The translations under genes were made by a program, and so were the position numbers. A stretch of DNA of 64,000 bases from contig CAVUKA010000001.1 in NCBI GenBank assembly GCA_963741945.1, positions 768,001-832,000 of the forward strand, written 5' to 3'. Positions 5,118-41,304 of the stretch are shown here, piece by piece. Origin of the DNA: an uncultured Gemmatimonadales bacterium. GTDB lineage: Bacteria > Gemmatimonadota > Gemmatimonadetes > Longimicrobiales > RSA9. Every line of letters starts with the position of its first letter. Positions within the stretch are counted from its first letter, which is position 1. The notes under the pieces are model-generated. The model saw only the letters and a program-made list of their open reading frames with translations. It had not been told where the DNA came from and ran no database searches.

Positions 5118-5155
5118 GCCGCCAGGGCCGGAGGGGCCCGGGTCGCCTGCCTGTC

Positions 5156-5180
5156 GGGTTCTGTTTGCGGGAGTTGTTGG
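5156..5180 (+). repeat. dispersed 25-bp motif, copy 1 (IS1595 TIR-like)
   Basis: GGGTTCTGTTTGCGGGAGTTGTTGG between convergent genes; preceded by CTGTC as at 14282. Confidence 0.9.
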
Positions 5181-5199
5181 CTGGCCGCCCGCCCACCCG

Positions 5200-7647: not shown

Positions 7648-7818
7648 TCAGGCGACGGGGGGCGTCAGCACCAGGAGCACCGCCAGCGGCGCCTTCCCGC
7701 CCCCGGGATCCTGGTCCGGTTTCGGCGTCGGGTCCCGTTGCGGGCCCGTTGTGTCCCTGCACGCGGTCACGCCGGCCCCCAGCACGAGGGCCATCGCCAG
7801 CACGAGAGTCCGCTTCAT
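7648..7818 (-). CDS. small lipoprotein (56 aa)
   Basis: MKRTLVLAMALVLGAGVTAC lipobox; ATGA overlap with the upstream DDAH stop. Confidence 0.7.
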   Translation of the reverse strand: MKRTLVLAMALVLGAGVTACRDTTGPQRDPTPKPDQDPGGGKAPLAVLLVLTPPVA

Positions 7819-8624
7819 GCTTCCGCCTCCGCGCGGAAGACGAGACTGCAGCACGTCACACCCGCCTCCGCTTTCTCGAGTTCCGATACATCCACTGAAA
7901 CCTGCCTGGAAACGCCCGCCGCGGCAATCCGGTCCGCGGTCCGCGGATGGCCTGCGGCCAGGAGCACGGCGTCGCCCACGCGCAGCACGTTGGCGGCGAC
8001 GGGCTCCCCCGCGGCCACCTCTACAACGCGCAGGTCGCGGAACGTGCGACGATCCACCCAGTCGGGGTTCAGCACCACCATGTCGTCCGCGGCGACCGAG
8101 ACGGCAGACTTCAGGTGCAGGCAGCCGCGCACCGGGACGCGCCTCACCTGGTACCCGAACGGCTCCAGCGTCTCCTGGAGCTGGCGCGCGCCCTCCAGGT
8201 CGGTCCGCTCCGACGCCCCCACGAACACGAGGTTTCCGACCACCAGCACGTCACCGCCATCGACACGCCCGGGGGCCTCGATGTGGCGAACGGTGCGGTG
8301 GCGCGCCAGCGCCTCCGCCACTCCTGTGACCTCCCCCCTCCGCGAAAGGGCGCCCGGCCGGGTCACGACGGCCACCTCGTCCACCACCACGGCCACATCC
8401 TCGACGAACACGCTGTCGGGGTGATCCGGCGCATCCGGCAGCCGCCGCACTTCACAGCCGAGATCGCGCAGCGCCCGTTCGTACGTCGCGTGCTGGGCGC
8501 GGGCGACCTCGAGGTCGATCGGCTCGCGGGGCAGGTGCGTCAGCTCGCACTCGGCGAGGCGCGGGCTCACCGCGCGCGTGTATGCGATCCACATGGCTCC
8601 CTCCGCTTCCACGTCCGTGCTCAT
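7815..8624 (-). CDS. dimethylarginine dimethylaminohydrolase (DDAH)
   Basis: CELTHLPR, PDSVFVED, RRGEV, DGGDVL, LHLKS, SELEKAEAGVTCCS. Confidence 0.92.
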   Translation of the reverse strand: MSTDVEAEGAMWIAYTRAVSPRLAECELTHLPREPIDLEVARAQHATYERALRDLGCEVRRLPDAPDHPDSVFVEDVAVVVDEVAVVTRPGALSRRGEVTGVAEALARHRTVRHIEAPGRVDGGDVLVVGNLVFVGASERTDLEGARQLQETLEPFGYQVRRVPVRGCLHLKSAVSVAADDMVVLNPDWVDRRTFRDLRVVEVAAGEPVAANVLRVGDAVLLAAGHPRTADRIAAAGVSRQVSVDVSELEKAEAGVTCCSLVFRAEAEA

Positions 8625-9160
8625 CCGCCAGCCGTTAAACGCGCGTCACCCAGCCGGTACACGCTGATGGTCGCGTCGCCCACACGGTGCCGCTCGGCGG
8701 AGCCGGGCAGATGATGGTCGGCGGCGTGCTCCACGGCCAGCACGGTCGCGAATGGGACATCGATCCAGCGCTCCACCAGCCGGTCCGTCTGGCGGGAGCC
8801 GTACGGCGGGTCGGCCAGCACCAGCTCGTAGGCGTGGGGAGAAAGCATGAACGCGAATCGGAGGGCATCGCGCTTGAACACCCGCGCCCGCGATTTCGCG
8901 CGCAGCGCGGCGACGTTCGCCTTCAGCGCGTGCAGCGTCGAGGGATTGTTCTCGACGAAGTCCACCGACGCGGCGCCGCGCGAAAGCGCCTCGAGCCCGA
9001 CGGCCCCCGTCCCGGCGTAGAGCTCCAGCACACGGGCGCCCGCCAGGTCCGGCTGCAGCAGCTCGACCCACCGGTCGCGCACCGCTTCCGCCGTCGGACG
9101 GACCCGTCCGGCCGGGGACGTGAGGTCCGTCCCCGCCCACTTCCCGGCAATGATCCTCAC
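8621..9160 (-). CDS. rsmD: 16S rRNA m2G966 methyltransferase RsmD family
   Basis: MRIIAGKW, VRPT, LELYAGTGAVGLEALSRGA, ADPPY. Confidence 0.9.
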   Translation of the reverse strand: MRIIAGKWAGTDLTSPAGRVRPTAEAVRDRWVELLQPDLAGARVLELYAGTGAVGLEALSRGAASVDFVENNPSTLHALKANVAALRAKSRARVFKRDALRFAFMLSPHAYELVLADPPYGSRQTDRLVERWIDVPFATVLAVEHAADHHLPGSAERHRVGDATISVYRLGDARLTAGG

Positions 9161-9519
9161 CGGGCGCGGAGCCCGTTGCGGTGCAGCGACAGCGCAGCTT
9201 CGAACCGCTCGCGCGCCTCCGCTTCCGTCTCACCTGTCGCCACGCAGCCGGGGAAGCCGTCGGCGTGTGCCGAAAAACCGGTCCGCGTCGCTTCGAGAAC
9301 AGGTGCGGCCTCCGCGTCCGGGTCCACCGGAGGCGCCGCCCCGGCCGCGCGCGAGCGGGCGGCATCGGCCGCCTGCGGGCCCAGCTCGTGGGTGTGCCCC
9401 ACCCAGACGGTGACCACGCCGGGCCTGTCCCCATGGACGTACTGGCGGCAGGCGCCTTCGGTGTCGCCCAGGTACCAGCCGTCGTCCTTCAAGCTCTTCA
9501 GCAGGTGTCGACCTTCCAT
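9157..9519 (-). CDS. HicA-like/HicB-like fusion protein (120 aa)
   Basis: N-half LKDDGWYLGDTEGACRQYVHGDRPGVVTV resembles HicA; C-half VLEATRTGFSAHADGFPGCVATGETEAEARERFEAALSLH resembles HicB; GTGA overlap with rsmD. Confidence 0.8.
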   Translation of the reverse strand: MEGRHLLKSLKDDGWYLGDTEGACRQYVHGDRPGVVTVWVGHTHELGPQAADAARSRAAGAAPPVDPDAEAAPVLEATRTGFSAHADGFPGCVATGETEAEARERFEAALSLHRNGLRAR

Positions 9520-9658
9520 GGTCCGGAATATAGGGGGGCGCCGCACCGATGGGCGAGCCCGGCGCGGCCGGCGGGGAGAGCGTCCGGGGGGCGGGAAGGC
9601 GCCGGGGTTGAAATGCGGGAAGCGGCCGGCGCAGACCGCCACCCGCCGGCAGCCGCGC

Positions 9659-11251
<1,593 letters not shown>

Positions 11252-11292
11252 AGCCCCGGATGGTCGCGGAAACGAAGCTCGAGATCAAGCCA

Positions 11293-12063
11293 TCAGTGGC
11301 CGCCGACCCGGACGCTCAGGCGCAGCGTGCTCGACACGGGGATGCCGTCGTGGAGGCGGGGTGCGTACTCCCAGTCGCGCGGAAATTCGATCAGGTACTG
11401 GTCGATGGTGTGATACCCCGTGGGGTGCGGCAGCTGCACGTCCATGACACGGCCCTGCTCGTCCAGGCTGATGAGCACATCGAAGCGGCGCCCCCGGTTC
11501 TCCAGGTACTCCACGTATTCCCGGCTGGTCAGCATCGGGAGGCGAATTCCCGGGAGGCGGCGCAACGGGTACGCGTCGCAGACCACCGACGGCAGCACGG
11601 CATCCAGGCGCCCGGCCACCAGCCGCAGCTGCACGCCCGAGCCCCCGCGCCAGTCCTCGACCAGCGACTCCTGCAGCAGGTGCACCAGCTCCGCCGTCTG
11701 GACCGGCGCCATGGTGCTGGACAGGACCCGGACCCAGTCCAGCCGGCCATCGTCCGCGTACCGCAACGACAGCAGCACCGTATCTCCGGGCGCATCGGCG
11801 GCGCCGCGGGCCCAGAGCGCGATGTTCCCGGCCGTCCCCGCTCGCGCCAGGTCGGTCAGCGCGGGCACTTCACCACGCCGGCCCACGTGATCACAGCGAC
11901 GTCCTGTCACACCCGGAACAGCAAAGCTCGCCGGTACCGGCTCCTGTTCCGGCCGCGGCCCACCCCCGCACGCGCTCGCCAGTGCCGGCAGGACCAGCAC
12001 CATCGTCGCCAACGGCGCGCGAAGACTGGCCGCGCGCCGAAGCCGTCGCCGGCTCCACTCCAT
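11293..12063 (-). CDS. lipoprotein with TonB C-terminal-like domain
   Basis: LASAC lipobox; C-terminal VLISLDEQGRVMDV...WEYAPRLHDGIPV resembles TonB_C; start may be 12078. Confidence 0.6.
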   Translation of the reverse strand: MEWSRRRLRRAASLRAPLATMVLVLPALASACGGGPRPEQEPVPASFAVPGVTGRRCDHVGRRGEVPALTDLARAGTAGNIALWARGAADAPGDTVLLSLRYADDGRLDWVRVLSSTMAPVQTAELVHLLQESLVEDWRGGSGVQLRLVAGRLDAVLPSVVCDAYPLRRLPGIRLPMLTSREYVEYLENRGRRFDVLISLDEQGRVMDVQLPHPTGYHTIDQYLIEFPRDWEYAPRLHDGIPVSSTLRLSVRVGGH

Positions 12064-12165
12064 CGGTATCAATAGCATACAGTATGGTGGCGCACTGCGG
12101 GCCGCCGTTCAAGGCCGACGCCGCCCCACTCGACTCCGCTTTCCTGCGCCGCCACCACGAGCGGC

Positions 12166-12194
12166 TTGCGGCCACGCCCGTGCTGGACTACGCT
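12166..12194 (+). promoter_or_regulatory. putative sigma70 promoter of the cold-shock gene
   Basis: TTGCGG-N17-TACGCT about 115 nt upstream of the csp ATG; a long 5' UTR is typical of csp genes. Confidence 0.4.
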
Positions 12195-12308
12195 GGATGC
12201 GCCGATCGCGGGACCCGGGGAACGGCTCCGGGGTCGCCGCGCGAAGCACGATCCTTGCGACGCTTCCCCGCGACAGTTCACCCACAGCCCACAGGTACAG
12301 AGCAAATC

Positions 12309-12527
12309 ATGGCGCGAGAGACCGGTACAGTCGTGCGATTCATGGACGACAAGGGTTACGGCTTCATCCAGCCCGACAAGGGCGGCAAGGACGTCTTCGT
12401 TCACCACTCCAGCATCGAGGGAAGCGGCTTCAAGTCCCTCGCGCAGGGCGAGCGGGTCGAGTACGAGCTGGTGCAGGATCCGAAGGGTCCGCGGGCAGAG
12501 AACGTCGTCCGAGTGGAAGAGGGCTAA
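12309..12527 (+). CDS. cold-shock protein (CspA family)
   Basis: KGYGFIQP (RNP1), DVFVHHSSI (RNP2), GFKSL, KGPRAENV. Confidence 0.96.
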   Translation: MARETGTVVRFMDDKGYGFIQPDKGGKDVFVHHSSIEGSGFKSLAQGERVEYELVQDPKGPRAENVVRVEEG

Positions 12528-12586
12528 GCTTACAGCCCCGGGCCTGCCTCCGACGTCGGCAGGCCACTTCATCCGCTTCCGCTTTC

Positions 12587-12623
12587 CTCACGGGCACGCG
12601 CAGGGGATGCGTGTGCCCGTGAG
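12587..12623 (+). terminator. stem-loop downstream of csp
   Basis: CTCACGGGCACGCGCA-GGGGA-TGCGTGTGCCCGTGAG, 16-bp stem with one G-U pair; no U tract. Confidence 0.5.
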
Positions 12624-12733
12624 CGACGTCTGTTCTGCCCGCCCATGGGAGCCGGATGCGGTGGGAGCGCCGGGGCCCCGCCCTCGGTGATGGTGCTCGC
12701 CGCGGCCCGGTCGGCTGGCTAGAATCCCGCCCC

Positions 12734-14053
12734 ATGCCGAATCGGATCCGCACCTCCCTTGGCCGCGCCTTCCGCGCGCTCCGGCGACGAAACTACAGGC
12801 TGCTGTTCGTCGGTCAGGCCATCTCCCTGACGGGGACGTGGATGCAGCAGCTGGCGTTGAGCTGGCTGGTCTATCGGCTGACCGGCTCCGCCTTCTTCCT
12901 CGGGCTGGTGGCGTTCGCGGGCCAGTTGCCCGGGTTCGTCATTGCCCCGCTGGCCGGGGTGCTGGCGGACCGGTGGAACCGTCACCGCATCGTGATGACC
13001 ACGCAGAGCCTCGGAATGGTGCAGGCCGTGGCCATTACGGTCCTGGTCCTCGGCGGCTGGGTCCAGGTCTGGCACATCGTGGCGCTGGCAGCATTGCTCG
13101 GCGTGGTCACGGGCGTGGACATACCGGCGCGCCAGGCGCTGTTCGTCGACCTCGTCGAAGGCGACCGCGAAGACCTCGCCAATGCCATCGCGCTGAACTC
13201 CTCCCTGTTCAATGCGACCCGCCTGATCGGTCCATCGCTTGGCGGCTTCCTCATCGCCGAGCTGGGGGAAGGTCCGGTCTTCGCGATCAATGCGGTCAGC
13301 TATGTGGCCGTGATCGCGAGCCTCGCCGCCATGCGGCTGCCCCCGCTGGTGCCGGGGGCCGCCACGGGGAGCGTGCTGGAGCGCCTGCGCGAGGGCTTCG
13401 GCTACGCCGCCGAGTTCCAGCCCATACGGGCGTTGCTCCTACATCTCGGCGCCGTGGCGCTCGTGGGTATGCCGTACGTGGTACTGCTCCCCGTTTTCGC
13501 CGACACTGTGCTCGGCGGCGGTGCACGCACCCTCGGGTTGCTCATGTCCGGCGCGGGGCTGGGGGCGCTCATCGGCGCGCTCTGGCTGGCGACGCGGCCC
13601 AGCGTGCGCGGCTTGAGCCTCGTCATCACCGTCGCCGCAGCCGTGTTCGGTGTGGGGCTGGTCTGCTTTTCTGCCAGTCGCGCGCTCCCGCTGTCCATGG
13701 CGCTCCTCGTGGTCACGGGCGGCGGAATGATGGTCATGTCCGCGTCCACCAACACCGTCCTCCAGACTGTGGTGCCGCCCGCTCTCCGCGGCCGCGTCAT
13801 GAGCCTTTACACCATGGCATTCATGGGCATGGGGACGATAGGCTCTCTCGCGGCCGGCTGGCTCGCGACGCGCTTTGGCGCACCGCCCACCGTGGCACTC
13901 GGAGGCCTCGGCTGCATCGCCGCCGCAGCCTGGTTCGCCCGACAACGCGCCGCGCTGCGGGACCATGTCCGTCCCATCTACCGGGAGCTCGGCATCATAC
14001 CCGAAGTCGCTTCCGGCCTCCTCAACGCGAGCGAGTTGCGAACGCGAGGCTGA
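12734..14053 (+). CDS. MFS transporter (DHA3/EntS-like)
   Basis: GQAISLTGTWMQ, GVLADRWNR, PARQA, NAIALNS, LRGRVMSLY; about 12 TM helices. Confidence 0.92.
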   Translation: MPNRIRTSLGRAFRALRRRNYRLLFVGQAISLTGTWMQQLALSWLVYRLTGSAFFLGLVAFAGQLPGFVIAPLAGVLADRWNRHRIVMTTQSLGMVQAVAITVLVLGGWVQVWHIVALAALLGVVTGVDIPARQALFVDLVEGDREDLANAIALNSSLFNATRLIGPSLGGFLIAELGEGPVFAINAVSYVAVIASLAAMRLPPLVPGAATGSVLERLREGFGYAAEFQPIRALLLHLGAVALVGMPYVVLLPVFADTVLGGGARTLGLLMSGAGLGALIGALWLATRPSVRGLSLVITVAAAVFGVGLVCFSASRALPLSMALLVVTGGGMMVMSASTNTVLQTVVPPALRGRVMSLYTMAFMGMGTIGSLAAGWLATRFGAPPTVALGGLGCIAAAAWFARQRAALRDHVRPIYRELGIIPEVASGLLNASELRTRG

Positions 14054-14127
14054 CGGCCGGGAGCGACGCCCCCGATACCGGACGTTCCGCGGCGATGATC
14101 GGCCCCCAGCGCATCGCAGGAGCGGCC

Positions 14128-14198
14128 GGGTGCGGCCGGCGAGGCACGGTGCGGCCGGCGAGGCCAAGTGTGGCCGACAAAGTCCGGTGCGGTCTGTC
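14128..14198. repeat. degenerate 19-bp tandem repeat (GGTGCGGCCGGCGAGGCAC) x3-4
   Basis: Two near-identical units followed by two diverged units. Confidence 0.6.
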
Positions 14199-14281
14199 GG
14201 TACGAAGGACGACGAGGGTGCAAGCACAGCCCCCGGGCGAGCGGCCGCGCTGTCGCGCTCTCCGGAGGCCACCAGGCTGTC

Positions 14282-15692
14282 GGGTTCTGTTTGCAGGAGT
14301 TGTTGGACCCCTCTTCCGATGATCTCCCATGAGCCTGTGCGGTGGGGTTCTGTTGGCGGGCATTGTTGGGATCACACGACGCGGTCTGCCGCCCCACGCT
14401 CGCAGCACGGAGGAGAATGTCCCCCCTAGCCATGGAAGTGCCCGGCGCGGCGAGGCACAGTGCTCCCCATGGCGCACCGCCCACCCCTTTCCTCACGGAG
14501 CATCCGTGCCGAGCCAGGCACGATCCGACGATGCGCACCAATGCCGCCGTTGGTGCCAACGCCGCACCGCGCTGTCAATCGGCCGCGCTGCGATCTCTTC
14601 CCGCAGCTGCGGCTGCAGTCGATCCCATTCCCGTTCAATGAGTTTCGCCGGACCGCCTTCGGCCATCGACGGCCCTGCCCCCGCTGCGGCGGGATCCGCG
14701 TATACGGGTGGGGCGGATTCCGCGGACGTCGTCGCTTTCGCTGTGTCGCATGCGGCCGCACATTCAGCGACTTCACCGGCACGCCGCTCCAACACCTGAA
14801 ACGCCTGGACCGCTGGCTCCCCTTCTGCGCTGTGTTCGGCATGGGACTGACCGTCCGTCGCACAGCCAGCCTCCTGGGCATCGACCCGACGACATCGTTT
14901 CGCTGGCGACACCGCCTCCTCGGCCCCGTCGTCGCCAGCGAGCATTATCCGCTCTCCGGGTTCGTGGATTGGGGCGATGCCTGGTTCACGTTCTCCGAGA
15001 AGGGCAGCCGAAGGCTCGATCGCCCGGCGAGGCGGCGGGCGCCACCTTTCTGGAGCGGCGGCGAGCCGCGCACATACGTGCTCCTGGCCAACGACAGCCA
15101 GGGGCGCGCCGTTGGGCGGCACGTTGGAGCGCGGCGGCCGGGGCGGACCACGGTGCTGGAGCTCGTGATCCCGCGCGTTGCGCCGGGTACTACGCTGCTC
15201 ACCGAGTGCGGACCGTTCGGGGACGGCGCCCGCATCGCCCGGCTCACGGGATTGCCCTGGCGCTGGCGACGCAAGCTCGATCGCGCCACCGCCCCATCCC
15301 TCGAGCCGCTCCGGGTCTACACCTCCCGCCTGAAACGGTGGATGCGGCCATTTCACGGGGTCGCGACGCGCTACCTCGATCACTACCTCGGGTGGTTCAG
15401 GCTCGTCGACGGTCCGCTCGTTGAAGCCGGCGACCCGGTCCCGGCGGCGCTCATCCTGTCCTCCGGCCGCTTCCCCTGACCTGCCGGCAGGGTCCTCGGC
15501 GGCGGATGCCGGATCCGAGGATTGGAGGGCGGCCAGAGGGGTTCAGGTCGCCCGCCAGGCACGCCAGCAGGTTGGATCGGCCGCCAGCGTCGGGGTCCAG
15601 GCCGCGCACCCCACAATTCCCGCGAACAGAACCCCATGGGGCTGATCGCCGACGCTGCCCCACTGCCCCAACAACTCCCGCCAACAGAACCC
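14282..15692. mobile_element. IS1595-family (ISPna2-like) element or domesticated derivative with doubled terminal inverted repeats
   Basis: 25-bp motif at 14282-14306 and 14345-14369 (+), and at 15610-15634 and 15668-15692 (-), flanking a transposase-like ORF; no target-site duplication seen. Confidence 0.8.
14541..15479 (+). CDS. IS1595-family transposase-like protein, catalytic residues apparently altered
   Basis: Zn ribbon CPRC...FRCVACGRTFSDFTGTPL; HTH TVRRTASLLGIDPTTSFRWRHR; C-terminal SRLKRWMRPFHGVATRYLDHYLGWFR; start may be 14469. Confidence 0.88.
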   Translation: MPPLVPTPHRAVNRPRCDLFPQLRLQSIPFPFNEFRRTAFGHRRPCPRCGGIRVYGWGGFRGRRRFRCVACGRTFSDFTGTPLQHLKRLDRWLPFCAVFGMGLTVRRTASLLGIDPTTSFRWRHRLLGPVVASEHYPLSGFVDWGDAWFTFSEKGSRRLDRPARRRAPPFWSGGEPRTYVLLANDSQGRAVGRHVGARRPGRTTVLELVIPRVAPGTTLLTECGPFGDGARIARLTGLPWRWRRKLDRATAPSLEPLRVYTSRLKRWMRPFHGVATRYLDHYLGWFRLVDGPLVEAGDPVPAALILSSGRFP

Positions 15693-15837
15693 CAGTGAAT
15701 CGAGGGGTTGGCCTCCACCTCCGCTGGGCTTAGGGTGCGATATCATGAGTGCCCGGGGCGGATCGCCGGGGGCCCGCGTCTGGTCGCCGAGCTGGCAGGC
15801 GCGGCGATATCCCAACGCTCGGAGGAGAAACCGAACG

Positions 15838-16032
15838 ATGGCGGAGATCGAGTACGAACGCGAGAACGAGCGCGTGGTCATTGCCAGGCAGGATGGTGAG
15901 GAGGTCGCCCGGATCGTAGAGGTCCCCGGCACGAACGTGACGAGCTTCCGCATGAAGGATGGCAGCAAGCGCGGCGATCGGGTGGCCGACCTGGAGGAGG
16001 CCAAGAAGCGGATCGAGAGCTACCTCAGCTGA
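15838..16032 (+). CDS. hypothetical protein (64 aa)
   Basis: GGAGGAG SD; typical codon usage. Confidence 0.7.
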   Translation: MAEIEYERENERVVIARQDGEEVARIVEVPGTNVTSFRMKDGSKRGDRVADLEEAKKRIESYLS

Positions 16033-16088
16033 CCGGAGTCACGGGCCCCCGAGCCTCGGGGGCCAGACTCGCCCCTGACGACGGCGGC

Positions 16089-16718
16089 TCAGGCAACTTC
16101 CGGCGTGATGATGTCGACCGCGCGCCAGCAGTACCAGGCGACGGCGCTCCTCCACGGCCGATAGCCGACCCCGATCCATTCCATCTCTTTCGGCGCCGGC
16201 GGCGCTTCCAGCCCCAGCACGCGGGCCATCCCGGCACGCACACCCAGATCGCCCACGGGCCATACGTCCGGGCGCCGGAGATCGAATAGCAGGTACATCT
16301 GGGCGGTCCATGGCCCAATGCCGCGAACACGCGTAAGCCTGGCGACCACTTCAGCGTCCGTGAGATCGTCCAGGTCACCGAGCGGTACGTCGCCGGAAAG
16401 CGACCGGGCGGCCAGGTCCTGGATCGCCGCGGCTTTCGCCCCGGACAGTCCGGCGGCGCGCAGCACTCCGTCGCCCGCGCCCAGCACGGACTCCGGCGAA
16501 ACGTCGCCGTCGAGCGCCGAGACGAAGCGGCCGTGGACGGTGCGCGCGGCCGCGCCAGCCAACTGCTGATACACGATCGCCGCCGACAGCGACTGGAACG
16601 CGTCACCCCTGGGCGGCCGCAGCCGAACCGGTCCCACCCGCTCCACCAGCGGACCGAATCCGGGATCCCCGCGCAGTCGCTCTGTCGCCTCCGGCCAGAC
16701 CGTCACCTCTTCATTCAT
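16089..16718 (-). CDS. DNA-3-methyladenine glycosylase 2 family (AlkA/HhH-GPD)
   Basis: IVYQQL, LRAAGLS, LTRVRGIGPWTAQM, DVWPVGDLGVR, YRPWRS. Confidence 0.92.
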   Translation of the reverse strand: MNEEVTVWPEATERLRGDPGFGPLVERVGPVRLRPPRGDAFQSLSAAIVYQQLAGAAARTVHGRFVSALDGDVSPESVLGAGDGVLRAAGLSGAKAAAIQDLAARSLSGDVPLGDLDDLTDAEVVARLTRVRGIGPWTAQMYLLFDLRRPDVWPVGDLGVRAGMARVLGLEAPPAPKEMEWIGVGYRPWRSAVAWYCWRAVDIITPEVA

Positions 16719-16905
16719 CCGGCGCCTTTCGTTCACTCGGCGTCCCATCGGGGGCCGAAAATGAAGCCGAGTGGACCCGGTCGCAACGGCCCCACGCCAG
16801 ACCGGCGGGGGAGAGCCGCGGGATCCCGAGGCGTTTGCCGCCGATCTCCCCTGCCCGCATCTTCCACGCTCCAACTGAACGATCCGAGACTTTTCGAGAG
16901 GAATC

Positions 16906-19164
16906 ATGCGACACCGTCTCGTCACCTTCGCGGCGCTGGCCGGCGCCGCGGCCTTAACGGCGTGCGGCGGCGGAGCCGTACGCGCTCCGGCAGCCATGAG
17001 CTCGCCCGTCCCTGCCCGCTCGAACGTGTACGCCCCGGATTCGCTGACCCGGGCCGATTACGCACGGGCCGAGCAGTTCCTGCCGGGGAACCTCCAGGAC
17101 AGCGTTTTCGGGACGCGCGTCTCACCTACGTGGCTTCCCGATGGCCGCGTCTGGTATCGGCACCCCACGCCATCCGGCGAGCAGGTCGTGGTGGTGACAC
17201 CGTCCACGGGTGACGTCGAGCGCCTGAGCGCCGATGATTCCCGCGCTCGGGCGCTCGCACCGGCGGACACAGGATGGGCGGCGTCGGACGACGGCAGGGC
17301 ATGGCTCCGGAACGCGGTGGTGTCGCCGGATGGGAAGTGGGCCGCGTTCCTGCAGGATCACGACCTGTGGCTCCGCGACCTCGCCACCCAGCGCGATTAC
17401 CCGCTGACCACGAACGGCGAGGACGGGTACGGCTACGCCACCAACAACGCCGGCTGGGTGCGGAGCGACCGCCCGGTGCTCCGCTGGTCGCCGGACTCCC
17501 GTCGCATCGCGACATTCCGCCACGACGCCCGTGGCGTGGGCCGCATGGTCGTGGCGCACACCCGCGCAGGACATCCGGTGGTGGACTCGTGGCGCTATCC
17601 CCTGCCCGAAGACACGGTGATCTTCCGCATCGAGCGGCTGGTGGTGGACGTTTCGAACCCCGCGTCGCCTTCCGTGGTCCGCTTCAAGATGCCCCCCGAC
17701 CCACACCGCTCCTCGGTATGCGACCACGTGTACTGCAATGGCACCTTCGCGGACCTGGAGTGGACGCCGGATGGCCGGCGCGTGGCGTTCGTCTCCACCT
17801 CCCGCGACCACAAGCGAGCCACGCTGAGGGTGGCCGACGCCGTCACCGGCAATGTCCGGACCGTCCTGGAAGAAACCTCGCCGACATTCCTCGAGACCGG
17901 CTACGACCGCTGGAACTGGCGGCTCCTTCCCGACAGCCACGAGGTGATCTGGTACTCGCGGCGCGACGATTGGGGCAAGCTCTACCTGTACGACCTGGAC
18001 TCCGGCGATCTGAAGCACGCGATCGGCCCCGGTCACTACAATGTTCTGGACGTGCTGCGCGTGGATCCCGATACGCGCACCCTCTGGTTCGTGGCCGACG
18101 GCGCTCGGGACGGAAACCCGTACTTCACCGATTTCTACCGCGTCAGCCTCGACGGCGGGGCGCCAACCCTGCTCACCGCCGAGAGCGCGAATCACGAGAT
18201 CTCCCTGTCGCCGGACGGCCGCTGGTTCGTGGACAGCTATTCGACCCCCACGGAGCCGCCCGCTACCGTGCTGCGCGACACGCGCGACGGCCGCATCGTC
18301 GCCCGGCTGGAGAAGGCTGACGTCTCTCGCCTCCTCGCCGCCGGCTGGCAACCTCCGATGCCGTTCACCGTGAAAGCCAGGGATGGGAAGACAGACCTGT
18401 ACGGCCTGCTGTTCCGGCCCACGCGCTTCGATCCCTCGAAGAAGTACCCTGTGATCAACTACGTGTACCCTGGCCCGCAGAGCGGGAGCGTGAGTACGTG
18501 GGGGTGGAGCGCCGCGCGCCGCGATCACCAGTCGCTGGCGGAGCTCGGATTCGTCGTGGTGGCGCTGAACGCCATGGGGGGGCCGATGCGCACGCAGTCG
18601 TTCCAGGCCACCTACTACGGCGACATGGGTGACAACGGGCTCCCGGACCAGATCGCGGGGATTGAGCAGCTGGCCGAGCGCTACCCGTGGATGGACCTGG
18701 ATCGCGTCGGCATCTGGGGACACTCGGGCGGCGGGTTCGCATCCACCAATGCCATCCTCCGGTACCCGGACTTCTACAAGGTGGCAGTCAGCGAGGCAGG
18801 AAATCACGACAACCGGGTGTATGAGGACGACTGGGGGGAGAAGTGGCAGGGGCTGCTTCGCGACCTCGGCGATGGCACGACGACCTACGACAACCAGGCG
18901 AACCAGCGCCTCGCGGGCAACCTGAAGGGGAAGCTGTTGCTGGCCCATGGCGCCGTGGACGACAACGTGCCGTACTTCAACACCCTGCTCGTGGTCCAGG
19001 CGCTGATCGACGCCAACAAGGACTTCGACCTGATCATCTTCCCGGACCAGCGACACGGGTTCGCCATGACGCCGTACATGATCCGGCGACGTTGGGACTA
19101 CTTCGTCCGGAACCTGCTCGGGGCCGAGCCACCGGCCGGGTACGAGATCGGCGCGGAACGCTAA
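16906..19164 (+). CDS. S9 family peptidase (DPP IV-like) lipoprotein
   Basis: LTAC lipobox; YPGPQ; GIWGHSGGG nucleophile; HGAVDDNV; RHGF. Confidence 0.95.
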   Translation: MRHRLVTFAALAGAAALTACGGGAVRAPAAMSSPVPARSNVYAPDSLTRADYARAEQFLPGNLQDSVFGTRVSPTWLPDGRVWYRHPTPSGEQVVVVTPSTGDVERLSADDSRARALAPADTGWAASDDGRAWLRNAVVSPDGKWAAFLQDHDLWLRDLATQRDYPLTTNGEDGYGYATNNAGWVRSDRPVLRWSPDSRRIATFRHDARGVGRMVVAHTRAGHPVVDSWRYPLPEDTVIFRIERLVVDVSNPASPSVVRFKMPPDPHRSSVCDHVYCNGTFADLEWTPDGRRVAFVSTSRDHKRATLRVADAVTGNVRTVLEETSPTFLETGYDRWNWRLLPDSHEVIWYSRRDDWGKLYLYDLDSGDLKHAIGPGHYNVLDVLRVDPDTRTLWFVADGARDGNPYFTDFYRVSLDGGAPTLLTAESANHEISLSPDGRWFVDSYSTPTEPPATVLRDTRDGRIVARLEKADVSRLLAAGWQPPMPFTVKARDGKTDLYGLLFRPTRFDPSKKYPVINYVYPGPQSGSVSTWGWSAARRDHQSLAELGFVVVALNAMGGPMRTQSFQATYYGDMGDNGLPDQIAGIEQLAERYPWMDLDRVGIWGHSGGGFASTNAILRYPDFYKVAVSEAGNHDNRVYEDDWGEKWQGLLRDLGDGTTTYDNQANQRLAGNLKGKLLLAHGAVDDNVPYFNTLLVVQALIDANKDFDLIIFPDQRHGFAMTPYMIRRRWDYFVRNLLGAEPPAGYEIGAER

Positions 19165-19251
19165 CATCGACGCGACGCGGAAGGGGGCGTCCGGTGGGCG
19201 GCGGCCGGGCGCCCTCCCGCGCTCGACGGCTTCGCATCAGCAGGAGGTGGG

Positions 19252-19845
19252 ATGGACGACACGAAAGGGCGATCGGTCCCGACTCGCGGGATCGAGGTCT
19301 GGCTCCCCGAGTGGGTGCACGAAGCCATGCCGGCGGCGGGCGTCCTCGAGTCTGTCGAGGACCGCATGCGCCTGGTGATCGAGCTGTCGCGTGAGAACGT
19401 GCTCCGCCGCGAGGGAGGCCCGTTCGCGGCAGCCGTATTCGAACGAGACACGGGTCGGCTGGTCAGTGTGGGGTTGAACAGCGTCGAGCGACTGAGGAAC
19501 TCCGCGCTCCACGCCGAGATGACGGCCCTCATGTTCGCGCAGCAGCGCCTTGGTGTGTTCACGCTTGCGGCAGAGGGCCTGCCGGCGCACGAGCTGGTGT
19601 CCTCGTGCGCCCCATGCGCCATGTGCCTGGGCGCCGTTCTGTGGAGCGGCGTGCGGAGGCTGGTTTGGGGCGCGGGGCGTGAAGATGCCCTCCGGATCCA
19701 GTTCGACGAGGGCCCGGTCTTTCCGGAGTCCATCCGCTACGTGGAGGAGCGAGGCGTCGAGATGATGCCGCACGTTCTGCGCGAGGAAGCCCGCGCGGTC
19801 CTGCAGCTCTATGCCGGGCGTGGCGGGCTCATCTACAACGGGTAG
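19252..19845 (+). CDS. nucleoside/guanine deaminase (CDA superfamily)
   Basis: GGPFAA, HAE, PCAMC zinc motifs, FDEG. Confidence 0.9.
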   Translation: MDDTKGRSVPTRGIEVWLPEWVHEAMPAAGVLESVEDRMRLVIELSRENVLRREGGPFAAAVFERDTGRLVSVGLNSVERLRNSALHAEMTALMFAQQRLGVFTLAAEGLPAHELVSSCAPCAMCLGAVLWSGVRRLVWGAGREDALRIQFDEGPVFPESIRYVEERGVEMMPHVLREEARAVLQLYAGRGGLIYNG

Positions 19846-19862
19846 ACCGGGGCGCGCGCCCG

Positions 19863-19948
19863 GCGCTCTGTTCGCGGGAGTTGTTGGACACGCGCGCTCC
19901 GAGGTCGGACACGGCCGGCGGCGGGGCGCTGTTCGCGGGAGTTGTTGG
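19863..19948 (+). repeat. tandem pair of the 25-bp dispersed motif
   Basis: GCGCTCTGTTCGCGGGAGTTGTTGG (19863-19887) and GGGCGCTGTTCGCGGGAGTTGTTGG (19924-19948), 61-bp period, between convergent genes. Confidence 0.9.
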
Positions 19949-19964
19949 GCCACCCATCACCCCC

Positions 19965-20711
19965 TCACGGCGCCACCGCTCCGTAAAGCCGCGGCAGATC
20001 CTGCACCGTCACGATTCCCAGCAGTTTCTCCGATGACGCGCCGGTGGACGTGACGAGCACCGCCTCCAGCCGCCGGCCGCGCGCCGGCGCTTCCGTGAAC
20101 AGTCGCACCACGTCCGCCACCAGGCGGTCGCGCGACACGAGGTCGAAGCGCTTCACCCCGTTCCCGAACTCCAGGACCTCCCGCACGGGCTCCTCGTGAA
20201 GGGTGTCAAGCGGCCCGGCCAGCTTCGTGGCGATCCAGCGCGCAATGGCATGGGCGGTGAGCAGGCCGATCAGCTCGTCGCCGGCGTACACGGGCAGTCG
20301 CGTGAACCCGCCCTTCACCATCCGCTCCGCGGCTTCCCCGATCGGGTCCTCCGCCGAGCAGGTCACCACCGGTCGGGACATGGCCTCGTCGATCCGAGGG
20401 GGGTGGACGAGCAGGGCGACGATGGCGTCGAGCCGCTCCACCGTCGCACCGTGCGGCTCCGCGATCACGTACCCGCCGCCCCTGTCGTGGACGATGGCGT
20501 TCCGCAGGTCGGCGAACTCCAGCAGGTCCTCTTCGACCGCCCGCACGACGACGTTGCGTTTCGCCGCCTGCCTCACCATCCAGCGGAACGAGTCCTTGGA
20601 CGACGTCCCCAGCATCCGCTTCAACGCGTCTTCCGCCTGTGCGAACGCGATCAGGAATCGATCAGAATTCGTCTCGGCCACGGCCCCCTCACCGTCGGTT
20701 TCGGCAATCAC
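19965..20711 (-). CDS. CBS-pair protein with N-terminal HEPN-like (RxxxxH) domain
   Basis: LRNAIVH in a helical N-terminus; MSRPVVTC...FTRLPVY...LIGLLT and LLGIVTVQDL CBS repeats. Confidence 0.85.
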   Translation of the reverse strand: MIAETDGEGAVAETNSDRFLIAFAQAEDALKRMLGTSSKDSFRWMVRQAAKRNVVVRAVEEDLLEFADLRNAIVHDRGGGYVIAEPHGATVERLDAIVALLVHPPRIDEAMSRPVVTCSAEDPIGEAAERMVKGGFTRLPVYAGDELIGLLTAHAIARWIATKLAGPLDTLHEEPVREVLEFGNGVKRFDLVSRDRLVADVVRLFTEAPARGRRLEAVLVTSTGASSEKLLGIVTVQDLPRLYGAVAP

Positions 20712-20742
20712 GGCCGCAACATACGACGCCCGACGCCGTCGG

Positions 20743-21537
20743 TCACGGCAGCTTCAAGCCCACCCACTCGGCTGGGCCGGCAGTGGCGGGGGCGACGAGG
20801 AGGACCACGCGCCCACCCCGGAACGCCGGCCGAAGCCGATTCCCCAGCTGGACGACGCCGCGACGCACCGCTGCCCCCGTCGCAAGGACCCGGACCTCGT
20901 CGACGCCGCGGGCCCGGATCTCGGCCACCGTGTGGAGACCGCCGAACGGGTCCGGCCAGGGCCAGCCGCGACGATGGACGACGCGCCCATCGTCGCCAGT
21001 GAGGCGGAGCCCGGCGGCGGCGAGCGCACCGATGACGCCATCCTCGGTGCCGCCGAGCCCTTCCAGCTCGAGCCCGAGCTGTCGGGCCAGGCGGCGGGCT
21101 TCAGCCTGGGGGACCGGCTCGCGTTGGCAGCGGCGACCGAACGCGACGAGCGGACAGGGGACCGGCGGGGCGGGATCGGGCGGCGCAGCCAACAACTCCC
21201 GCGAACAGAGCTCGACGGGGGCCACCACCACCCCCGGATCGCTGCCCTCAGGCGCGAACTCCCGGATGGCGTTCCGGAGGAACTCCATGAGCACGGCCGG
21301 CAGTGGGGCCTCCAGCGTCCGACGGTGCTCCCCCGTCGCGGTCACGTCGATGGACGCTGCCCCGTTCTGGCTGGTGAAGGGGATGCGTGGATCCTTGAGC
21401 AGCTGGTGGCGGAGGACGATGTCGGCTTCGAACCCCGCCGGCAGAGTCTCGGCAATGCTGCGCGCCAGCTGGTTTGTCCCCGGCGCCCCGATGATGTCGG
21501 TGTCGTCGAGCCCGATGATCAGCTTCCGGCTAATCAA
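20743..21537 (-). CDS. TiaS-core-like (DUF1743-type) hypothetical protein
   Basis: [12 protein letters not shown]...[25 protein letters not shown]; probable TTG start overlapping the upstream stop. Confidence 0.75.
21189..21213 (-). repeat. 25-bp dispersed motif inside a CDS
   Basis: GAGCTCTGTTCGCGGGAGTTGTTGG, read as ELCSRELL in the 20743..21537 protein. Confidence 0.85.
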
Positions 21538-22483
21538 TGGGTTTGAGCCCTGCGAGGATCGCCTCCCGTCGTGGCTCGAGGAAAGGCGGAAGCACGACCT
21601 TCTCGCCCAGCGTATCAGGGCTCTCGTCCACGGCGAAGCCGGGGCCGTCCGTCGCGATCTCGAAGAGGACGCCGTTGGGCTCACGAAAATACAGGCTGCG
21701 GAACCAGAAACGGTCCACGGGCCCGGAGTTGGGAACGCCCATCTCCCCCAACCGCCCGACCCACTGCTCGTACTCCTGCGTGTCCGGGGTGCGGAACGCC
21801 ACGTGGTGCACGCCGCCCGCGCCTTGCCGGGACGGGGGGAGGTCGGGCTGGACGGCCACGTGGAGCTCGCCCTGCGGGCCGTCGGCGCCCATCCGAAACA
21901 CGTGGACGCCGGCGGGTCCATGGATCTCGTCCGCGTAATCCCGCGCCAGCTCCATGCCGAGCACCTGCGTCAGCAGGACATTGGTGGGCTGGAGCGTTGG
22001 CGCGCTCATGACGATCGGCCCGAGCCCCCGGATCTGGTGCTCCGCGGGCACCGGGCAGCCGTCCCAGTACGCGGGCGCATCGCCGGCGCCGCCGTCGTCC
22101 ACCAGCGAGAGCCGCTGCCCTTCGGGGTCGTCGAAGTCCATGGTCGCGCGGCCGTCCCGCTCCACGATGTCGCCGTGGATCACACCGCTGCGGTCCAGGT
22201 GCTCGAGCCACCACTCGAGCGATTCGGCGCCGTCCACCCGCATGTGCGTTCGGACGAGGCTGCGCGTGCCGCGGCGCTCCCGGGGCACCGGCCAGTCGAA
22301 GAAGGTGATGTCCGTACCGGGATTCCCACGGCCGTCGGCGTAGAAGAGGTGGTAGGCGGACACGTCGTCCTGATTCACGCTCCGCTTCACCAGGCGGAGG
22401 CCGAGGACTCGCGTGTAGAAGCGATAGTTCTCCCGGACGTCTGCGGTGATGGCCGTGAGGTGGTGGACGCCGCGCAGCTCCAT
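21530..22483 (-). CDS. ring-cleaving dioxygenase/glyoxalase (MhqO-like VOC)
   Basis: [59 protein letters not shown]. Confidence 0.93.
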
Positions 22484-26132: not shown

Positions 26133-27212
26133 ATGAGCGATGGGAGAATGGGGCAGGCGGGCGACGGCGAAGGCGCAGGGGGCGCCGCCAACAATTCCCG
26201 CGAACAGAACCCCAGTGATCTGGGCCGCCGCGCGTTTGTGCGGGCGGCTGCTGGCGCGGCGGCGACACTGACCGGCGCCGGCCTGCTGTCCGCGCCGCTA
26301 CTGGGCGCCAGCACCAGCCGCGGGCGCCGCGCCGCCGGCCACCGTCCCCCGGCGCTCGCGCCCGAGCCGTGGGGCAGTCTCGTCCCCGTCGCCGAAGACG
26401 CCTGGGCAGTGATCTCGACGCCGCTGGCGTCCGGCCCCGAAGCCCGGCGCACGGTGTGCAACGGCGGGCTGGTCGCCGGCAAGGACGCGGTGCTCGCGAT
26501 CGAGGGGTTCGCCTCGCCCGCCGGCGCCACGTGGCTCGCGGCGGAAGCTGAGCGGCTGGTCGGCCGTCCCCCCACGCATGTCGTGCTGACACATTACCAC
26601 GCCGATCATACGGGCGGCACCGTGGGCTACGTCCGCGACGGCGCGCCGCCCACGATGCTCGCGACCGAGACCACTCGCCGCCTGACGGCCCGGCACGAGG
26701 CCGAGCTGCGCGATGGCGCCAGGGCCGCTCCGCCGGTGCTGCTCCCCGACCACCTGATCCCGGATCAGGGCGATCCCGTCGAGCTCGACCTGGGCGGCCG
26801 GCACGTCCGGCTCGTGGGGCGCGCGGGGCACACGCCCAGCGATCTGGTGGTCGAGCTCGGCGACGCCCCCGTGATCTTCACGGGAGACCTGGTCTGGATC
26901 GGCATGTTCCCGAACTACGTGGACGCCATCCCCTCCCTGCTCTCCCGCAACGTGCGGGCGTTGCGCGCGCAGAACGCCGAGACCTACGTCTCCGGCCACG
27001 GGACGCTGGGCACGCCCGCAGATCTCGACCGCTACATCGCCCTGCTGGACCATGTCGAGACCGCAGCCCGCCGTGCCGTCGACGCCGGCCTCCCCGTAGA
27101 ACAGGCCGCGGCCGATTATACGATCCCGGCGTCGCTCGGGTCGTGGCACATGTTCTCCCCGCGCTACGCCGAGATGGCGTTCAGGGCCTGGGCCCGGGAG
27201 CTGGCGGACTAG
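26133..27212 (+). CDS. MBL-fold metallo-hydrolase with Tat-like signal
   Basis: LGRRAFV twin-arginine motif; THYHADHTGG, GHTPSD, FTGDL, SGHG; start uncertain. Confidence 0.88.
   Translation: MSDGRMGQAGDGEGAGGAANNSREQNPSDLGRRAFVRAAAGAAATLTGAGLLSAPLLGASTSRGRRAAGHRPPALAPEPWGSLVPVAEDAWAVISTPLASGPEARRTVCNGGLVAGKDAVLAIEGFASPAGATWLAAEAERLVGRPPTHVVLTHYHADHTGGTVGYVRDGAPPTMLATETTRRLTARHEAELRDGARAAPPVLLPDHLIPDQGDPVELDLGGRHVRLVGRAGHTPSDLVVELGDAPVIFTGDLVWIGMFPNYVDAIPSLLSRNVRALRAQNAETYVSGHGTLGTPADLDRYIALLDHVETAARRAVDAGLPVEQAAADYTIPASLGSWHMFSPRYAEMAFRAWARELAD
26188..26212 (-). repeat. 25-bp dispersed motif at the 5' end of the MBL gene
   Basis: CCAACAATTCCCGCGAACAGAACCC followed by CAGTGA, the same flank as the copy at 15668. 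Confidence 0.9.
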
Positions 27213-41242: not shown

Positions 41243-41251
41243 CTCGTCCGC

Positions 41252-41276
41252 GCGCTCTGTTTGCGGGAGTTGTTGG
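41252..41276 (+). repeat. 25-bp dispersed motif
   Basis: GCGCTCTGTTTGCGGGAGTTGTTGG between convergent genes. Confidence 0.9.
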
Positions 41277-41304
41277 TGGCCGCCTCGCCCCGCCCGCCCC
41301 CCCG

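What the first reader, a model, noticed from the sequence alone, without database searches (positions are those of the whole stretch)
14541..15479. Intact IS1595-like ORF with all predicted catalytic residues replaced (possible domesticated DNA-binding protein)
Seen: an uninterrupted ORF of about 312 aa with conserved Zn ribbon, HTH and C-terminal FHGVATRYLDHYLGWF. Against my recalled ISPna2-type consensus, LSGIVEADETYF aligns to LSGFVDWGDAWF (D to G), LCTDG to LLTEC (D to E), and HIQNVNxY to SLEPLRVY (N to R). No target-site duplication is visible. Inference: a catalytically dead or repurposed transposase retained for binding the dispersed motif. Neutral decay is the alternative.
Basis: partly seen in the sequence, partly recalled or inferred. 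Interest (0 to 1): 0.7.

Follow-up and report, generated by a model that had tools for sequence, protein, structure and literature searches.

The report
Domesticated, catalytically dead IS1595 transposase
An intact gene descended from an IS1595 jumping-gene enzyme has lost all three catalytic residues, yet it and the short inverted repeats flanking it are conserved in a family of Gemmatimonadota, so it looks like a transposase turned into a site-specific DNA-binding protein.

Summary
Window 14541-15479 (+) is an open 312-aa IS1595-type gene. It keeps the C4 zinc ribbon, the HTH, an RNase H-like fold and the C-terminal helix. Aligned to canonical relatives, D-D-N is replaced by G145, E222 and R258.

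This is not private decay. 84 of the 120 closest database homologues lack the triad; the 36 that keep it form a separate branch. Syntenic orthologues give dN/dS of 0.18-0.20 with unsaturated dS. The genome's own paralogue has a syntenic orthologue in the sister species.

The gene is flanked by two plus two copies of a ~28-nt inverted repeat that resembles canonical IS1595 ends. In orthologues this repeat is the only conserved island in otherwise unalignable spacers. About 20 copies lie in the genome, in two sequence classes, each clustered near its own paralogue. I saw no target-site duplication and no near-identical gene copies.

Best reading (0.68): a domesticated, catalytically dead transposase that binds repeats derived from transposon ends. 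DNA binding and cellular role are inferred. This particular copy has no orthologue, so selection on it is not measured. How the ~30-nt sites reach new spacers is unexplained.

My literature searches listed no bacterial IS1595 domestication. Interest 0.6.

The parts
14541..15479 (+). Open reading frame of the triad-less IS1595-like protein (312 aa plus stop; alternative GTG start at 14460)
14676..14759 (+). C4 zinc ribbon (CPRC ... CVAC, residues 46-73)
   Evidence: the four Cys are invariant in A1
14853..14915 (+). Helix-turn-helix ending in TSFRWRHR (residues about 105-125)
14964..14987 (+). Strand b1, VDWGDAWF: first catalytic Asp replaced by G145
14994..15038 (+). SEKGSRRLDRPARRR block, conserved in both triad-less and canonical proteins
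15195..15212 (+). End of strand b4, LLTECG: second catalytic Asp replaced by E222
15297..15320 (+). SLEPLRVY: third catalytic residue (Asn) replaced by R258; K265 kept
15351..15398 (+). Conserved C-terminal helix FHGVATRYLDHYLGWF
14277..14312 (+). Outer left copy of the ~28-nt repeat (36-nt scoring window, 40.2 bits)
14340..14375 (+). Inner left copy of the repeat (36.4 bits), 63 nt after the outer one
15604..15639 (-). Inner right copy of the repeat, inverted (45.6 bits)
15662..15697 (-). Outer right copy of the repeat, inverted (39.0 bits); 93% complementary to 14343-14370 over 28 nt
5151..5186 (+). Solitary class-1 repeat copy between convergent genes
19858..19954 (+). Two direct class-1 repeat copies (61-nt spacing), left of a CBS-domain gene
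21183..21218 (-). Inverted class-1 repeat copy, right of the CBS-domain gene
26182..26217 (-). Solitary class-1 repeat copy (46.5 bits)
41247..41282 (+). Solitary class-1 repeat copy between convergent genes

Best explanation
The gene encodes a domesticated IS1595 (ISPna2-like) transposase that can no longer cut DNA. It is kept by selection as a sequence-specific DNA-binding protein.

Shown:
- The D-D-N triad is gone in this protein and in its whole clade.
- The zinc ribbon, the HTH, a basic SEKGSR..RRR block and the C-terminal helix stay as conserved as in active relatives. The catalytic-core segments have relaxed but still fold as RNase H-like.
- Orthologues sit at fixed loci under purifying selection.
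- The ~28-nt inverted repeats around the gene, which resemble canonical IS1595 terminal repeats, are conserved where the surrounding spacer is not.

Inferred:
- The protein binds these repeats through its N-terminal domains, as a transposase binds its ends.
- The retained core and C-helix hold two or more bound sites together, in a paired-end-like complex without chemistry.
- At its own locus this would bracket and probably autoregulate the gene. The roughly ten further intergenic sites near each paralogue would be extra binding sites with a local regulatory or architectural role.
For: Triad loss. G145/E222/R258 replace D/D/N. 84 of the 120 closest homologues lack the triad and 0 of those 84 have all three residues. 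At the three columns, 11 of the 84 have D at the first, 2 of the 84 have D at the second, and none has N at the third. The 36 triad-bearing proteins form one branch with support 1.0. The only acidic residues conserved at 80% or more in the clade are D77, which lies before the core, and D185, which is also conserved in canonical proteins.

Fold. The RNase H-like topology is kept, with pLDDT 77. Foldseek's best hits are Mos1, Sleeping Beauty, ISCth4 and integrases, at E 2e-5 to 1e-3.

Selective pattern. Mean pairwise identity, triad-less versus canonical: zinc ribbon 0.63 vs 0.67; HTH 0.55 vs 0.68; SEKGSR block 0.64 vs 0.80; C helix 0.69 vs 0.79; b1 0.37 vs 0.80; b2-b3 0.34 vs 0.72; a1-b5 0.29 vs 0.61; loop 0.15 vs 0.84.

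Purifying selection at fixed loci.
- Three genomes (L041, L042, L048) share both flanks at 85-89% DNA identity. The gene is 75-80% identical, omega is 0.18-0.20 at dS 0.44-0.75, and the dead core gives 0.22-0.33.
- The own paralogue L002 and the sister-species copy L012 have flanks 73-75% identical. Omega is 0.15 in Zn+HTH and in the C helix.

No sign of IS-like multiplication.
- Only 2 copies in this genome, 46% identical.
- Seven paralogues in G029 are 42-56% identical over 21 pairs; all are open and triad-less.
- The maximum seen among relatives is 62.5%, between two copies in G017, an unpublished genome.
- 1 of 54 match rows carries a stop.

Repeats.
- Two plus two copies flank the gene.
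- Homologues in most related loci are flanked the same way. Left and right copies of one locus are alike, for example 32 consecutive identical bases in L010.
- The right repeat is 27 of 27 identical in three orthologous loci, inside a spacer that otherwise does not align.
- Canonical multi-copy relatives (1051-1061 bp, 93-99% identical copies, 8-bp duplications) end in a related sequence: 17 of 24 bases shared with the class-2 repeat, counted by eye.

This copy looks like a normal clade member. It keeps 63 of 70 clade-conserved residues (clade median 94%). Its GC3 is 0.82 against 0.78-0.87 for its neighbours.
Against: - No orthologue of this particular copy was found. The sister species has a hemolysin-III gene where this genome has the MFS gene plus the IS-like gene. 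None of the 45 other related loci compared shares its neighbours. dN/dS for this copy is therefore unmeasured.
- DNA binding, oligomerisation and any effect on transcription are untested. No sigma-70-like promoter was found between the repeats and the start codon. No expression data were available.
- E222 is a conservative change. D146 and D143 lie next to the lost D1, so residual metal binding in this one protein cannot be excluded from sequence alone.
- Dispersed repeat copies sit in non-syntenic spacers in the two species of the genus and carry genome-specific variants. A pure binding protein does not explain this; it hints at some ongoing copying process.
- The canonical comparison set is taxonomically narrower than the triad-less set, so part of the contrast reflects sampling.
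- The tree is unrooted. A single loss of the triad is the parsimonious reading, not a demonstrated one.
Confidence: 0.68

Rival explanations
1. Neutral relic. This copy is a dead insertion sequence drifting towards loss. Its open frame reflects the scarcity of stop codons in 70% GC DNA, not selection.
For: No orthologue in the sister species, and no shared neighbours in the 45 other related loci compared. Long spurious ORFs overlap the gene on other frames. Pfam domain scores are below the gathering thresholds. P0001 ranks in the lower third of its clade for conserved residues (rank 21 of 84 from the bottom).
Against: It still keeps 63 of 70 clade-conserved positions, including all four zinc-binding Cys and the whole C-helix motif. 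Its four flanking repeats are intact, and the best pair is 93% complementary. The clade as a whole is under purifying selection at fixed loci. Triad loss is clade-wide, so it long predates this copy.
Confidence: 0.12
2. Still a mobility enzyme. The protein, alone or with a host nuclease, still copies the ~30-nt repeats (not itself) into new intergenic places. This would be a REPIN/RAYT-like partnership built on a DDE scaffold with non-canonical chemistry.
For: - Repeat copies carry genome-specific variants shared by all copies. The class-2 central bases differ between this genome (8 copies) and the sister species (5 copies).
- Both dispersed sites tested between the two species are present in one and absent from the syntenic spacer of the other.
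- Copy numbers differ among three close genomes: 11, 8 and 20.
- Sites cluster within tens of kb of the cognate gene, as expected for a cis-acting enzyme. Ten of 12 class-1 sites lie within a 36-kb span that contains the gene. All 8 class-2 sites lie within 42 kb of the paralogue. In G001 all 5 sites lie within 11 kb. In G013, 10 of 19 lie within about 85 kb.
- Each paralogue has its own repeat class.
Against: - No conserved acidic trio exists in the core, and the three catalytic columns hold many different residues across the clade.
- No target duplications or clean insertion boundaries were seen.
- Only the ~30-nt core is shared between copies in this genome.
- Tandem 57-63-nt arrays suggest slippage or duplication, not transposition.
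- In the orthologous trio the gene-flanking repeat is conserved in place, which selection alone explains.
Confidence: 0.12
3. Transposon immunity. The dead transposase is kept because it occupies the ends of incoming active IS1595 elements, or poisons their transposase as a dominant-negative partner, and so keeps the family out of the genome.
For: The genome has no match over the PF12762 cut-off other than this sub-threshold one, so no active IS1595 was found in a 96.7% complete assembly. The repeat resembles canonical ends. The C-terminal helix and the core, which I take to be multimerisation surfaces (an inference), remain under selection.
Against: It does not explain why the gene's own flanking repeats and the dispersed copies are conserved, nor why genomes keep up to seven divergent paralogues. 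The repeat differs from the canonical ends compared at 7 of 24 positions.
Confidence: 0.08

Closest known systems
IS1595 family insertion sequences, ISPna2-like group (as found here in Janthinobacterium, Massilia and a Pseudomonadota MAG)
   Same: N-terminal zinc ribbon, HTH, RNase H-like domain and C-terminal GVA(T/S)RYL helix, at 33-39% identity. Inverted repeats that start with GG and share 17 of 24 bases with the class-2 repeat. A single gene tightly bracketed by the repeats.
   Different: - Canonical copies keep D-D-N (36 of 36). They are multi-copy at 93-99% identity, 1051-1061 bp long, with 8-bp target duplications.
- The window gene lacks the triad and the duplication.
- It has doubled repeats on each side, only one 46%-identical paralogue, and relatives at fixed loci under purifying selection.
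RAYT-REPIN systems (REP-associated tyrosine transposases; Bertels, Gallie and Rainey 2017, PMC5581495, abstract and passages read)
   Same: - A low-copy transposase-derived gene with syntenic orthologues in related genomes.
- It is flanked by short cognate repeats.
- The same repeats are dispersed in intergenic DNA, often as inverted pairs that can form hairpins.
- Each paralogue has its own repeat class.
   Different: RAYTs are HUH/Y1 enzymes with intact catalytic residues, and REPINs can occur hundreds of times. Here the protein is DDE-derived and triad-less, and there are only 8-20 copies per genome. The genome's single Y1_Tnp hit (C1:755443-755721) has no repeat copy nearby.
Eukaryotic transposase domestications that keep end-binding (SETMAR/Hsmar1, CENP-B) and inactive PiggyMac-like partners in Paramecium (PMC6143343, search listing and abstract start only; SETMAR and CENP-B recalled, not seen)
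   Same: The transposase DNA-binding domain is retained and selected. The catalytic site is altered or lost. Binding sites descend from the transposon's own terminal repeats.
   Different: Those are eukaryotic, from mariner/pogo/piggyBac superfamilies, and often fused to host domains. This case is bacterial and unfused, and the gene still sits between its own repeats.
TldR, nuclease-dead TnpB-derived repressors in bacteria
   Same: A bacterial transposon-encoded nuclease that lost catalysis and was kept as a DNA-targeting regulator.
   Different: TldR is RNA-guided and RuvC-derived. This protein would recognise DNA directly through a zinc ribbon and an HTH.

Membership tests
IS1595 family transposase / insertion sequence | N-terminal zinc-finger domain (Zn_Tnp_IS1595; feature as stated in PMC8101967, passages read) | tested here: met
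   NF050000 31.5 bits (cut-off 28). Pfam PF12760 19.8 bits is below its 25.4 cut-off. The four Cys are invariant in A1.
IS1595 family transposase / insertion sequence | C-terminal DDE_Tnp_IS1595 domain | tested here: inconclusive
   PF12762 23 bits is below its 27 cut-off. NF033547 75.9 bits is just over its 75 cut-off. The fold is RNase H-like.
IS1595 family transposase / insertion sequence | Intact catalytic triad (D, D, N/E) | tested here: not met
   G145, E222 and R258 occupy the three columns. 0 of 84 clade members have all three residues.
IS1595 family transposase / insertion sequence | Terminal inverted repeats bracketing a single gene | tested here: met
   28-nt arms, 93% complementary, two copies on each side. 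They resemble canonical ends.
IS1595 family transposase / insertion sequence | 8-bp target-site duplication (PMC8101967, passages read) | tested here: not met
   None at the outer or inner repeats here, nor in the 17 repeat pairs printed. Canonical relatives do show them.
IS1595 family transposase / insertion sequence | Multiple near-identical copies (evidence of recent transposition) | tested here: not met
   2 copies at 46% identity in this genome. 42-56% identity among 7 copies in G029. Maximum 62.5%, in G017, an unpublished genome.
RAYT-REPIN-type system | HUH/Y1 transposase with catalytic Tyr | tested here: not met
   The protein matches IS1595 models and DDE-fold structures, not Y1_Tnp.
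RAYT-REPIN-type system | Low-copy gene, vertically inherited | tested here: inconclusive
   Met for the paralogue (syntenic with G001) and for the L041/L042/L048 trio. No orthologue was found for the window copy. Some genomes hold up to 7 paralogues.
RAYT-REPIN-type system | Gene flanked by cognate repeats that are also dispersed, often as inverted doublets | tested here: met
   20 sites above 26 bits in this genome. The reversed-genome control gave 1 hit of 14 bits or more, maximum 17.4. Four class-2 inverted pairs, and pairs in other genomes.
Domesticated transposase (general criteria) | Loss of catalytic residues with retention of the DNA-binding domain | tested here: met
Domesticated transposase (general criteria) | Purifying selection on orthologues at a fixed locus | tested here: met
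   Omega 0.18-0.20 in three syntenic genomes. Omega about 0.22 for the paralogue pair, where dS is saturated. Not measurable for the window copy itself.
Domesticated transposase (general criteria) | A host function | not testable with these tools
   No expression data. No recurrent neighbouring gene across the 47 loci compared, beyond shared synteny between related genomes. No PADLOC match.

The most novel reading that the evidence does not exclude
A second, independent kind of 'REP and its keeper' system. A vertically inherited transposase relic on a DDE scaffold has no catalytic triad, yet it still governs a small, co-evolving population of ~30-nt repeats derived from its own transposon ends. 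These repeats keep appearing in new intergenic spacers close to the gene. The protein would either recruit host enzymes to copy the sites, or organise the surrounding tens of kilobases of chromosome through paired-end-like bridges.
Probability: 0.2. Interest if true: 0.8.

Novelty: new variant of a known kind. Interest (0 to 1): 0.6.

Why it matters
Domestication of transposases into DNA-binding proteins is well documented in eukaryotes. In bacteria the best-studied cases, the RAYTs, keep their chemistry.

Here a whole clade of IS1595-type proteins has lost the catalytic triad. It has nonetheless kept, under measurable purifying selection, both its DNA-binding parts and the repeats derived from the transposon ends. 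It was found in 20 of 36 sampled genomes of one family of Gemmatimonadota, with up to seven paralogues per genome.

That gives a testable bacterial example of a transposase turned site-specific binder, with its binding sites already mapped by sequence. It also shows that the 'IS1595 family transposase' label carried by the named database homologues of this clade should not be counted as mobile DNA.

The clustering of each repeat class around its own paralogue, and the turnover of sites between sister species, pose a concrete open question: how do short repeats spread without an evident enzyme?

My searches listed no bacterial IS1595 domestication. They were: 'IS1595' + 'domesticated'; 'domesticated transposase'/'prokaryotes'/'catalytically inactive'; 'Longimicrobi' + 'transposase' + 'repeat'; 'REPIN'/'RAYT'/'DDE transposase'. 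Only listings and abstract starts were read, except for two papers (PMC8101967 and PMC5581495). Supplements were closed.

Tried and rejected
- Expression: no RNA holder was listed for window 14200-15750.
- Laying the contigs of two DNA runs on window 4000-23900 showed only low-depth contigs of a near-identical strain and nothing about mobility.
- Promoter scan of 14050-15800: 0 sigma-70-like sites.
- Empty-site test in the sister species: no clean empty site. The whole segment between the cold-shock gene and the small conserved ORF differs.
- Insertion boundaries of dispersed repeats, G000 against G001: the spacers are too diverged to define ends or duplications.
- MITE hypothesis (inverted pairs as internal-deletion derivatives of the gene element): rejected for this genome, G010 and G013, where only the ~30-nt core is shared. 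In G033 three copies share a longer unit of about 250 nt.
- Link to a Y1/RAYT enzyme: there is one Y1_Tnp hit 27 kb from the gene, with no repeat copy nearby.
- Link to origin or terminus: cumulative GC skew is monotonic across both repeat clusters.
- Defence-system link: no PADLOC match for either paralogue or for the repeat-flanked CBS protein.
- Conserved neighbour gene: none across the 47 loci, apart from synteny within two groups of related genomes.
- Earlier notes of this scan: nothing near the window and nothing on these words.
I did not run it, so that claim rests on the printed pairs.
- The first try of the search for related loci failed because the machine was busy. It was repeated and answered.
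Full report
**What is there**

Window 14541-15479 (+) is an uninterrupted 312-aa ORF. An in-frame GTG at 14460 would add 27 residues. Similarity to relatives begins near residue 28 of the 312-aa form, which is also the public gene call (P0001).

- NCBIfam's IS1595 transposase model is just met: 75.9 bits against a cut-off of 75.
- The IS1/IS1595 zinc-domain model is met: 31.5 bits against 28.
- The two Pfam IS1595 domains score below their gathering thresholds: 23 bits against 27, and 19.8 against 25.4.

The protein is therefore a divergent family member, not a chance ORF.

**The triad**

I aligned the protein with 11 close homologues and 10 canonical ~321-aa homologues from Pseudomonadota (A1). 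The canonical proteins read EADETY, LLVTDGHP and HVQNVNAYHSRFK. The window protein reads VDWGDAWF, TLLTECGP and SLEPLRVYTSRLK. The three catalytic columns hold G145, E222 and R258, with K265 kept.

In an AlphaFold model built on A1 (pLDDT 77, pTM 0.72), these residues sit on b1, just after b4, and at the start of the helix after b5. The core keeps the RNase H-like order of strands and helices. Foldseek's best solved matches are Mos1, Sleeping Beauty, ISCth4 and retroviral integrases (E 2e-5 to 1e-3).

That D-D-N(+K) is the triad of this IS group is recalled from Siguier et al. 2009, which I did not see.

**The loss is clade-wide**

- Of the 120 best database homologues, 36 carry D-D-N and 84 do not. 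None of the 84 has all three residues. The columns hold many different residues: 11 D at the first, 2 D at the second, no N at the third.
- A FastTree of the 120 puts the 36 canonical proteins on one branch with support 1.0 (unrooted).
- Where the sources give names, the triad-less proteins come from Longimicrobiales or Gemmatimonadota MAGs.
- The protein query matched 25 of 61 related genomes, including 20 of 36 in the window's own family. There were 1-7 matches per genome, and only 1 of 54 match rows carried a stop (these counts include G017, an unpublished genome).
- In an even sample of the phylum it matched only 8 of 301 genomes at E<=1e-20.

**Selection**

Within the triad-less set, the zinc ribbon, the HTH, the SEKGSR..RRR block and the C-terminal helix are about as conserved as in the canonical set. 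The strands and loops that carried the triad have relaxed (figures are given under Best explanation). The canonical set is taxonomically narrower, so the contrast is partly a sampling effect.

Two sets of orthologues give direct tests.

1. The closest relatives of the window protein (45-49% identity) lie in three genomes with the same neighbours on both sides: L041, L042 and L048. L007 is the same DNA as L042 and is counted once. The flanks are 85-89% identical and the gene 75-80%. Nei-Gojobori omega is 0.18-0.20 at dS 0.44-0.75, and 0.22-0.33 even in the dead core.
2. The window genome's only paralogue (C3, 46% identity) is syntenic with the single copy of the sister species G001. Omega is 0.15 in Zn+HTH and in the C helix. 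In the dead core pN/pS is 0.57. dS is saturated, so these are rough.

No near-identical gene copies were seen anywhere. Seven paralogues in G029 are 42-56% identical. The highest value among relatives, 62.5%, is between two copies in G017, the unpublished genome.

**The repeats**

The gene is bracketed by a ~28-nt repeat. Two direct copies lie upstream (14277-14312 and 14340-14375). Two inverted copies lie downstream (15604-15639 and 15662-15697). The best pair is 93% complementary.

The same arrangement surrounds homologues in most related loci. The left and right copies of a locus are visibly more alike than copies of different loci. For example, 32 consecutive identical bases in L010 and 24 in L020 (a permutation test of this was not run). 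In three loci, including the own paralogue, a tight inverted pair lies just upstream of the gene instead.

Canonical relatives give a reference point. Seven or more copies in a Janthinobacterium and three in a Pseudomonadota MAG are 1051-1061 bp long and 93-99% identical, with 8-bp target duplications. They end in a GG-initial inverted repeat that shares 17 of 24 bases with the class-2 repeat (counted by eye). The repeat is therefore best read as a descendant of the transposon's ends.

No target duplication accompanies it here or in the pairs printed.

In the orthologous trio, the spacer downstream of the gene cannot be aligned except for one island. That island is the right-hand repeat, 27 of 27 bases identical in all three genomes. 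The repeat is therefore under selection in its own right.

**Dispersed copies**

A weight matrix built from 45 copies finds 20 sites above 26 bits in the window's genome. The reversed-genome control gave one hit of 14 bits or more, maximum 17.4. The sites fall into two sequence classes.

- Class 1: 12 sites, all on contig C1. Ten lie within a 36-kb span that contains the window gene.
- Class 2: 8 sites, all on C3, as four inverted pairs within 42 kb of the paralogue.

By a crude GC3-based gene call nearly all sites are intergenic: some between convergent genes, some in divergent promoter regions. Only the ~30-nt core is shared between copies.

The sister species has 5 copies of its own variant, all within 11 kb of its gene. 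I tested two dispersed sites between the two species. Each is present in one and absent from the syntenic spacer of the other. Other genomes hold 4-20 copies against controls of 0-1, as pairs or as tandem arrays with a 57-63-nt period.

**Reading**

The best-supported explanation is a domesticated, catalytically dead transposase kept as a site-specific DNA-binding protein whose sites descend from its own ends. Binding, bridging of sites and any regulatory effect are inferences.

Neutral decay is disfavoured for the clade. It is not excluded for this copy, which has no orthologue in the sister species or in the 45 other related loci compared. The copy does keep 63 of 70 clade-conserved residues and has host-like GC3.

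The turnover, the genome-specific variants and the near-gene clustering of the ~30-nt sites are not explained by a passive binder. They keep alive a REPIN/RAYT-like reading in which the sites are still being copied. RAYT features were taken from PMC5581495 (abstract and passages). IS1595 family features were taken from PMC8101967 (passages).

My four literature searches listed no bacterial domesticated IS1595.

Noticed in passing
window 19858-21218: A 248-aa CBS-domain gene (19965-20711, minus strand; PF00571, E 1e-16) has an N-terminal part containing an R-x4-H word that looks HEPN-like by eye. It sits between two direct copies and one inverted copy of the class-1 repeat. This is the same architecture as around the IS1595-like gene but with a different cargo. 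No PADLOC hit.
   Followed up: partly
window 14116-14191: Three and a half copies of a 19-nt GC-rich tandem repeat lie between the MFS gene's stop codon and the outer left repeat.
   Followed up: no
window 12584-15787 versus L034 500-1501 (G001): Between a conserved cold-shock gene and a conserved 95-aa ORF, this genome carries an MFS_3 transporter plus the IS1595-like gene. The sister species carries a hemolysin-III-like 230-aa membrane protein instead.
   Followed up: partly
G000:C1:755443-755721 (about 12 kb before the window start): The genome's single Y1_Tnp (PF01797, 28.9 bits) hit, a possible RAYT/IS200-type gene. It is not associated with the repeat studied here.
   Followed up: no
L148 2250-3408 (G339) versus L143 733-777 (G341): Directly beside a syntenic repeat copy, one genome has an extra 1.16 kb holding a 156-aa predicted lipoprotein gene. 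The other genome has 44 bp there. Together with the window locus, this makes two cases of gene-content differences abutting a repeat copy.
   Followed up: partly
G339, G340, G341 contig ends: Many repeat copies lie 90-520 bases from contig ends in these MAGs. A roughly 150-nt unit around some copies recurs at several contig ends. The repeats therefore break assemblies, and true copy numbers are probably higher than counted.
   Followed up: no
L041 3352-4100 and L042 3349-4260: The spacers downstream of the orthologous genes are filled with different lineage-specific tandem repeats (units of about 14-24 nt) around the one conserved repeat island.
   Followed up: no
L124, L125, L126 (G033): Three copies of a roughly 250-nt repeat carry a central inverted pair of the motif. 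One copy is in the opposite orientation. In that genome the repeated unit extends well beyond the 30-nt core.
   Followed up: partly
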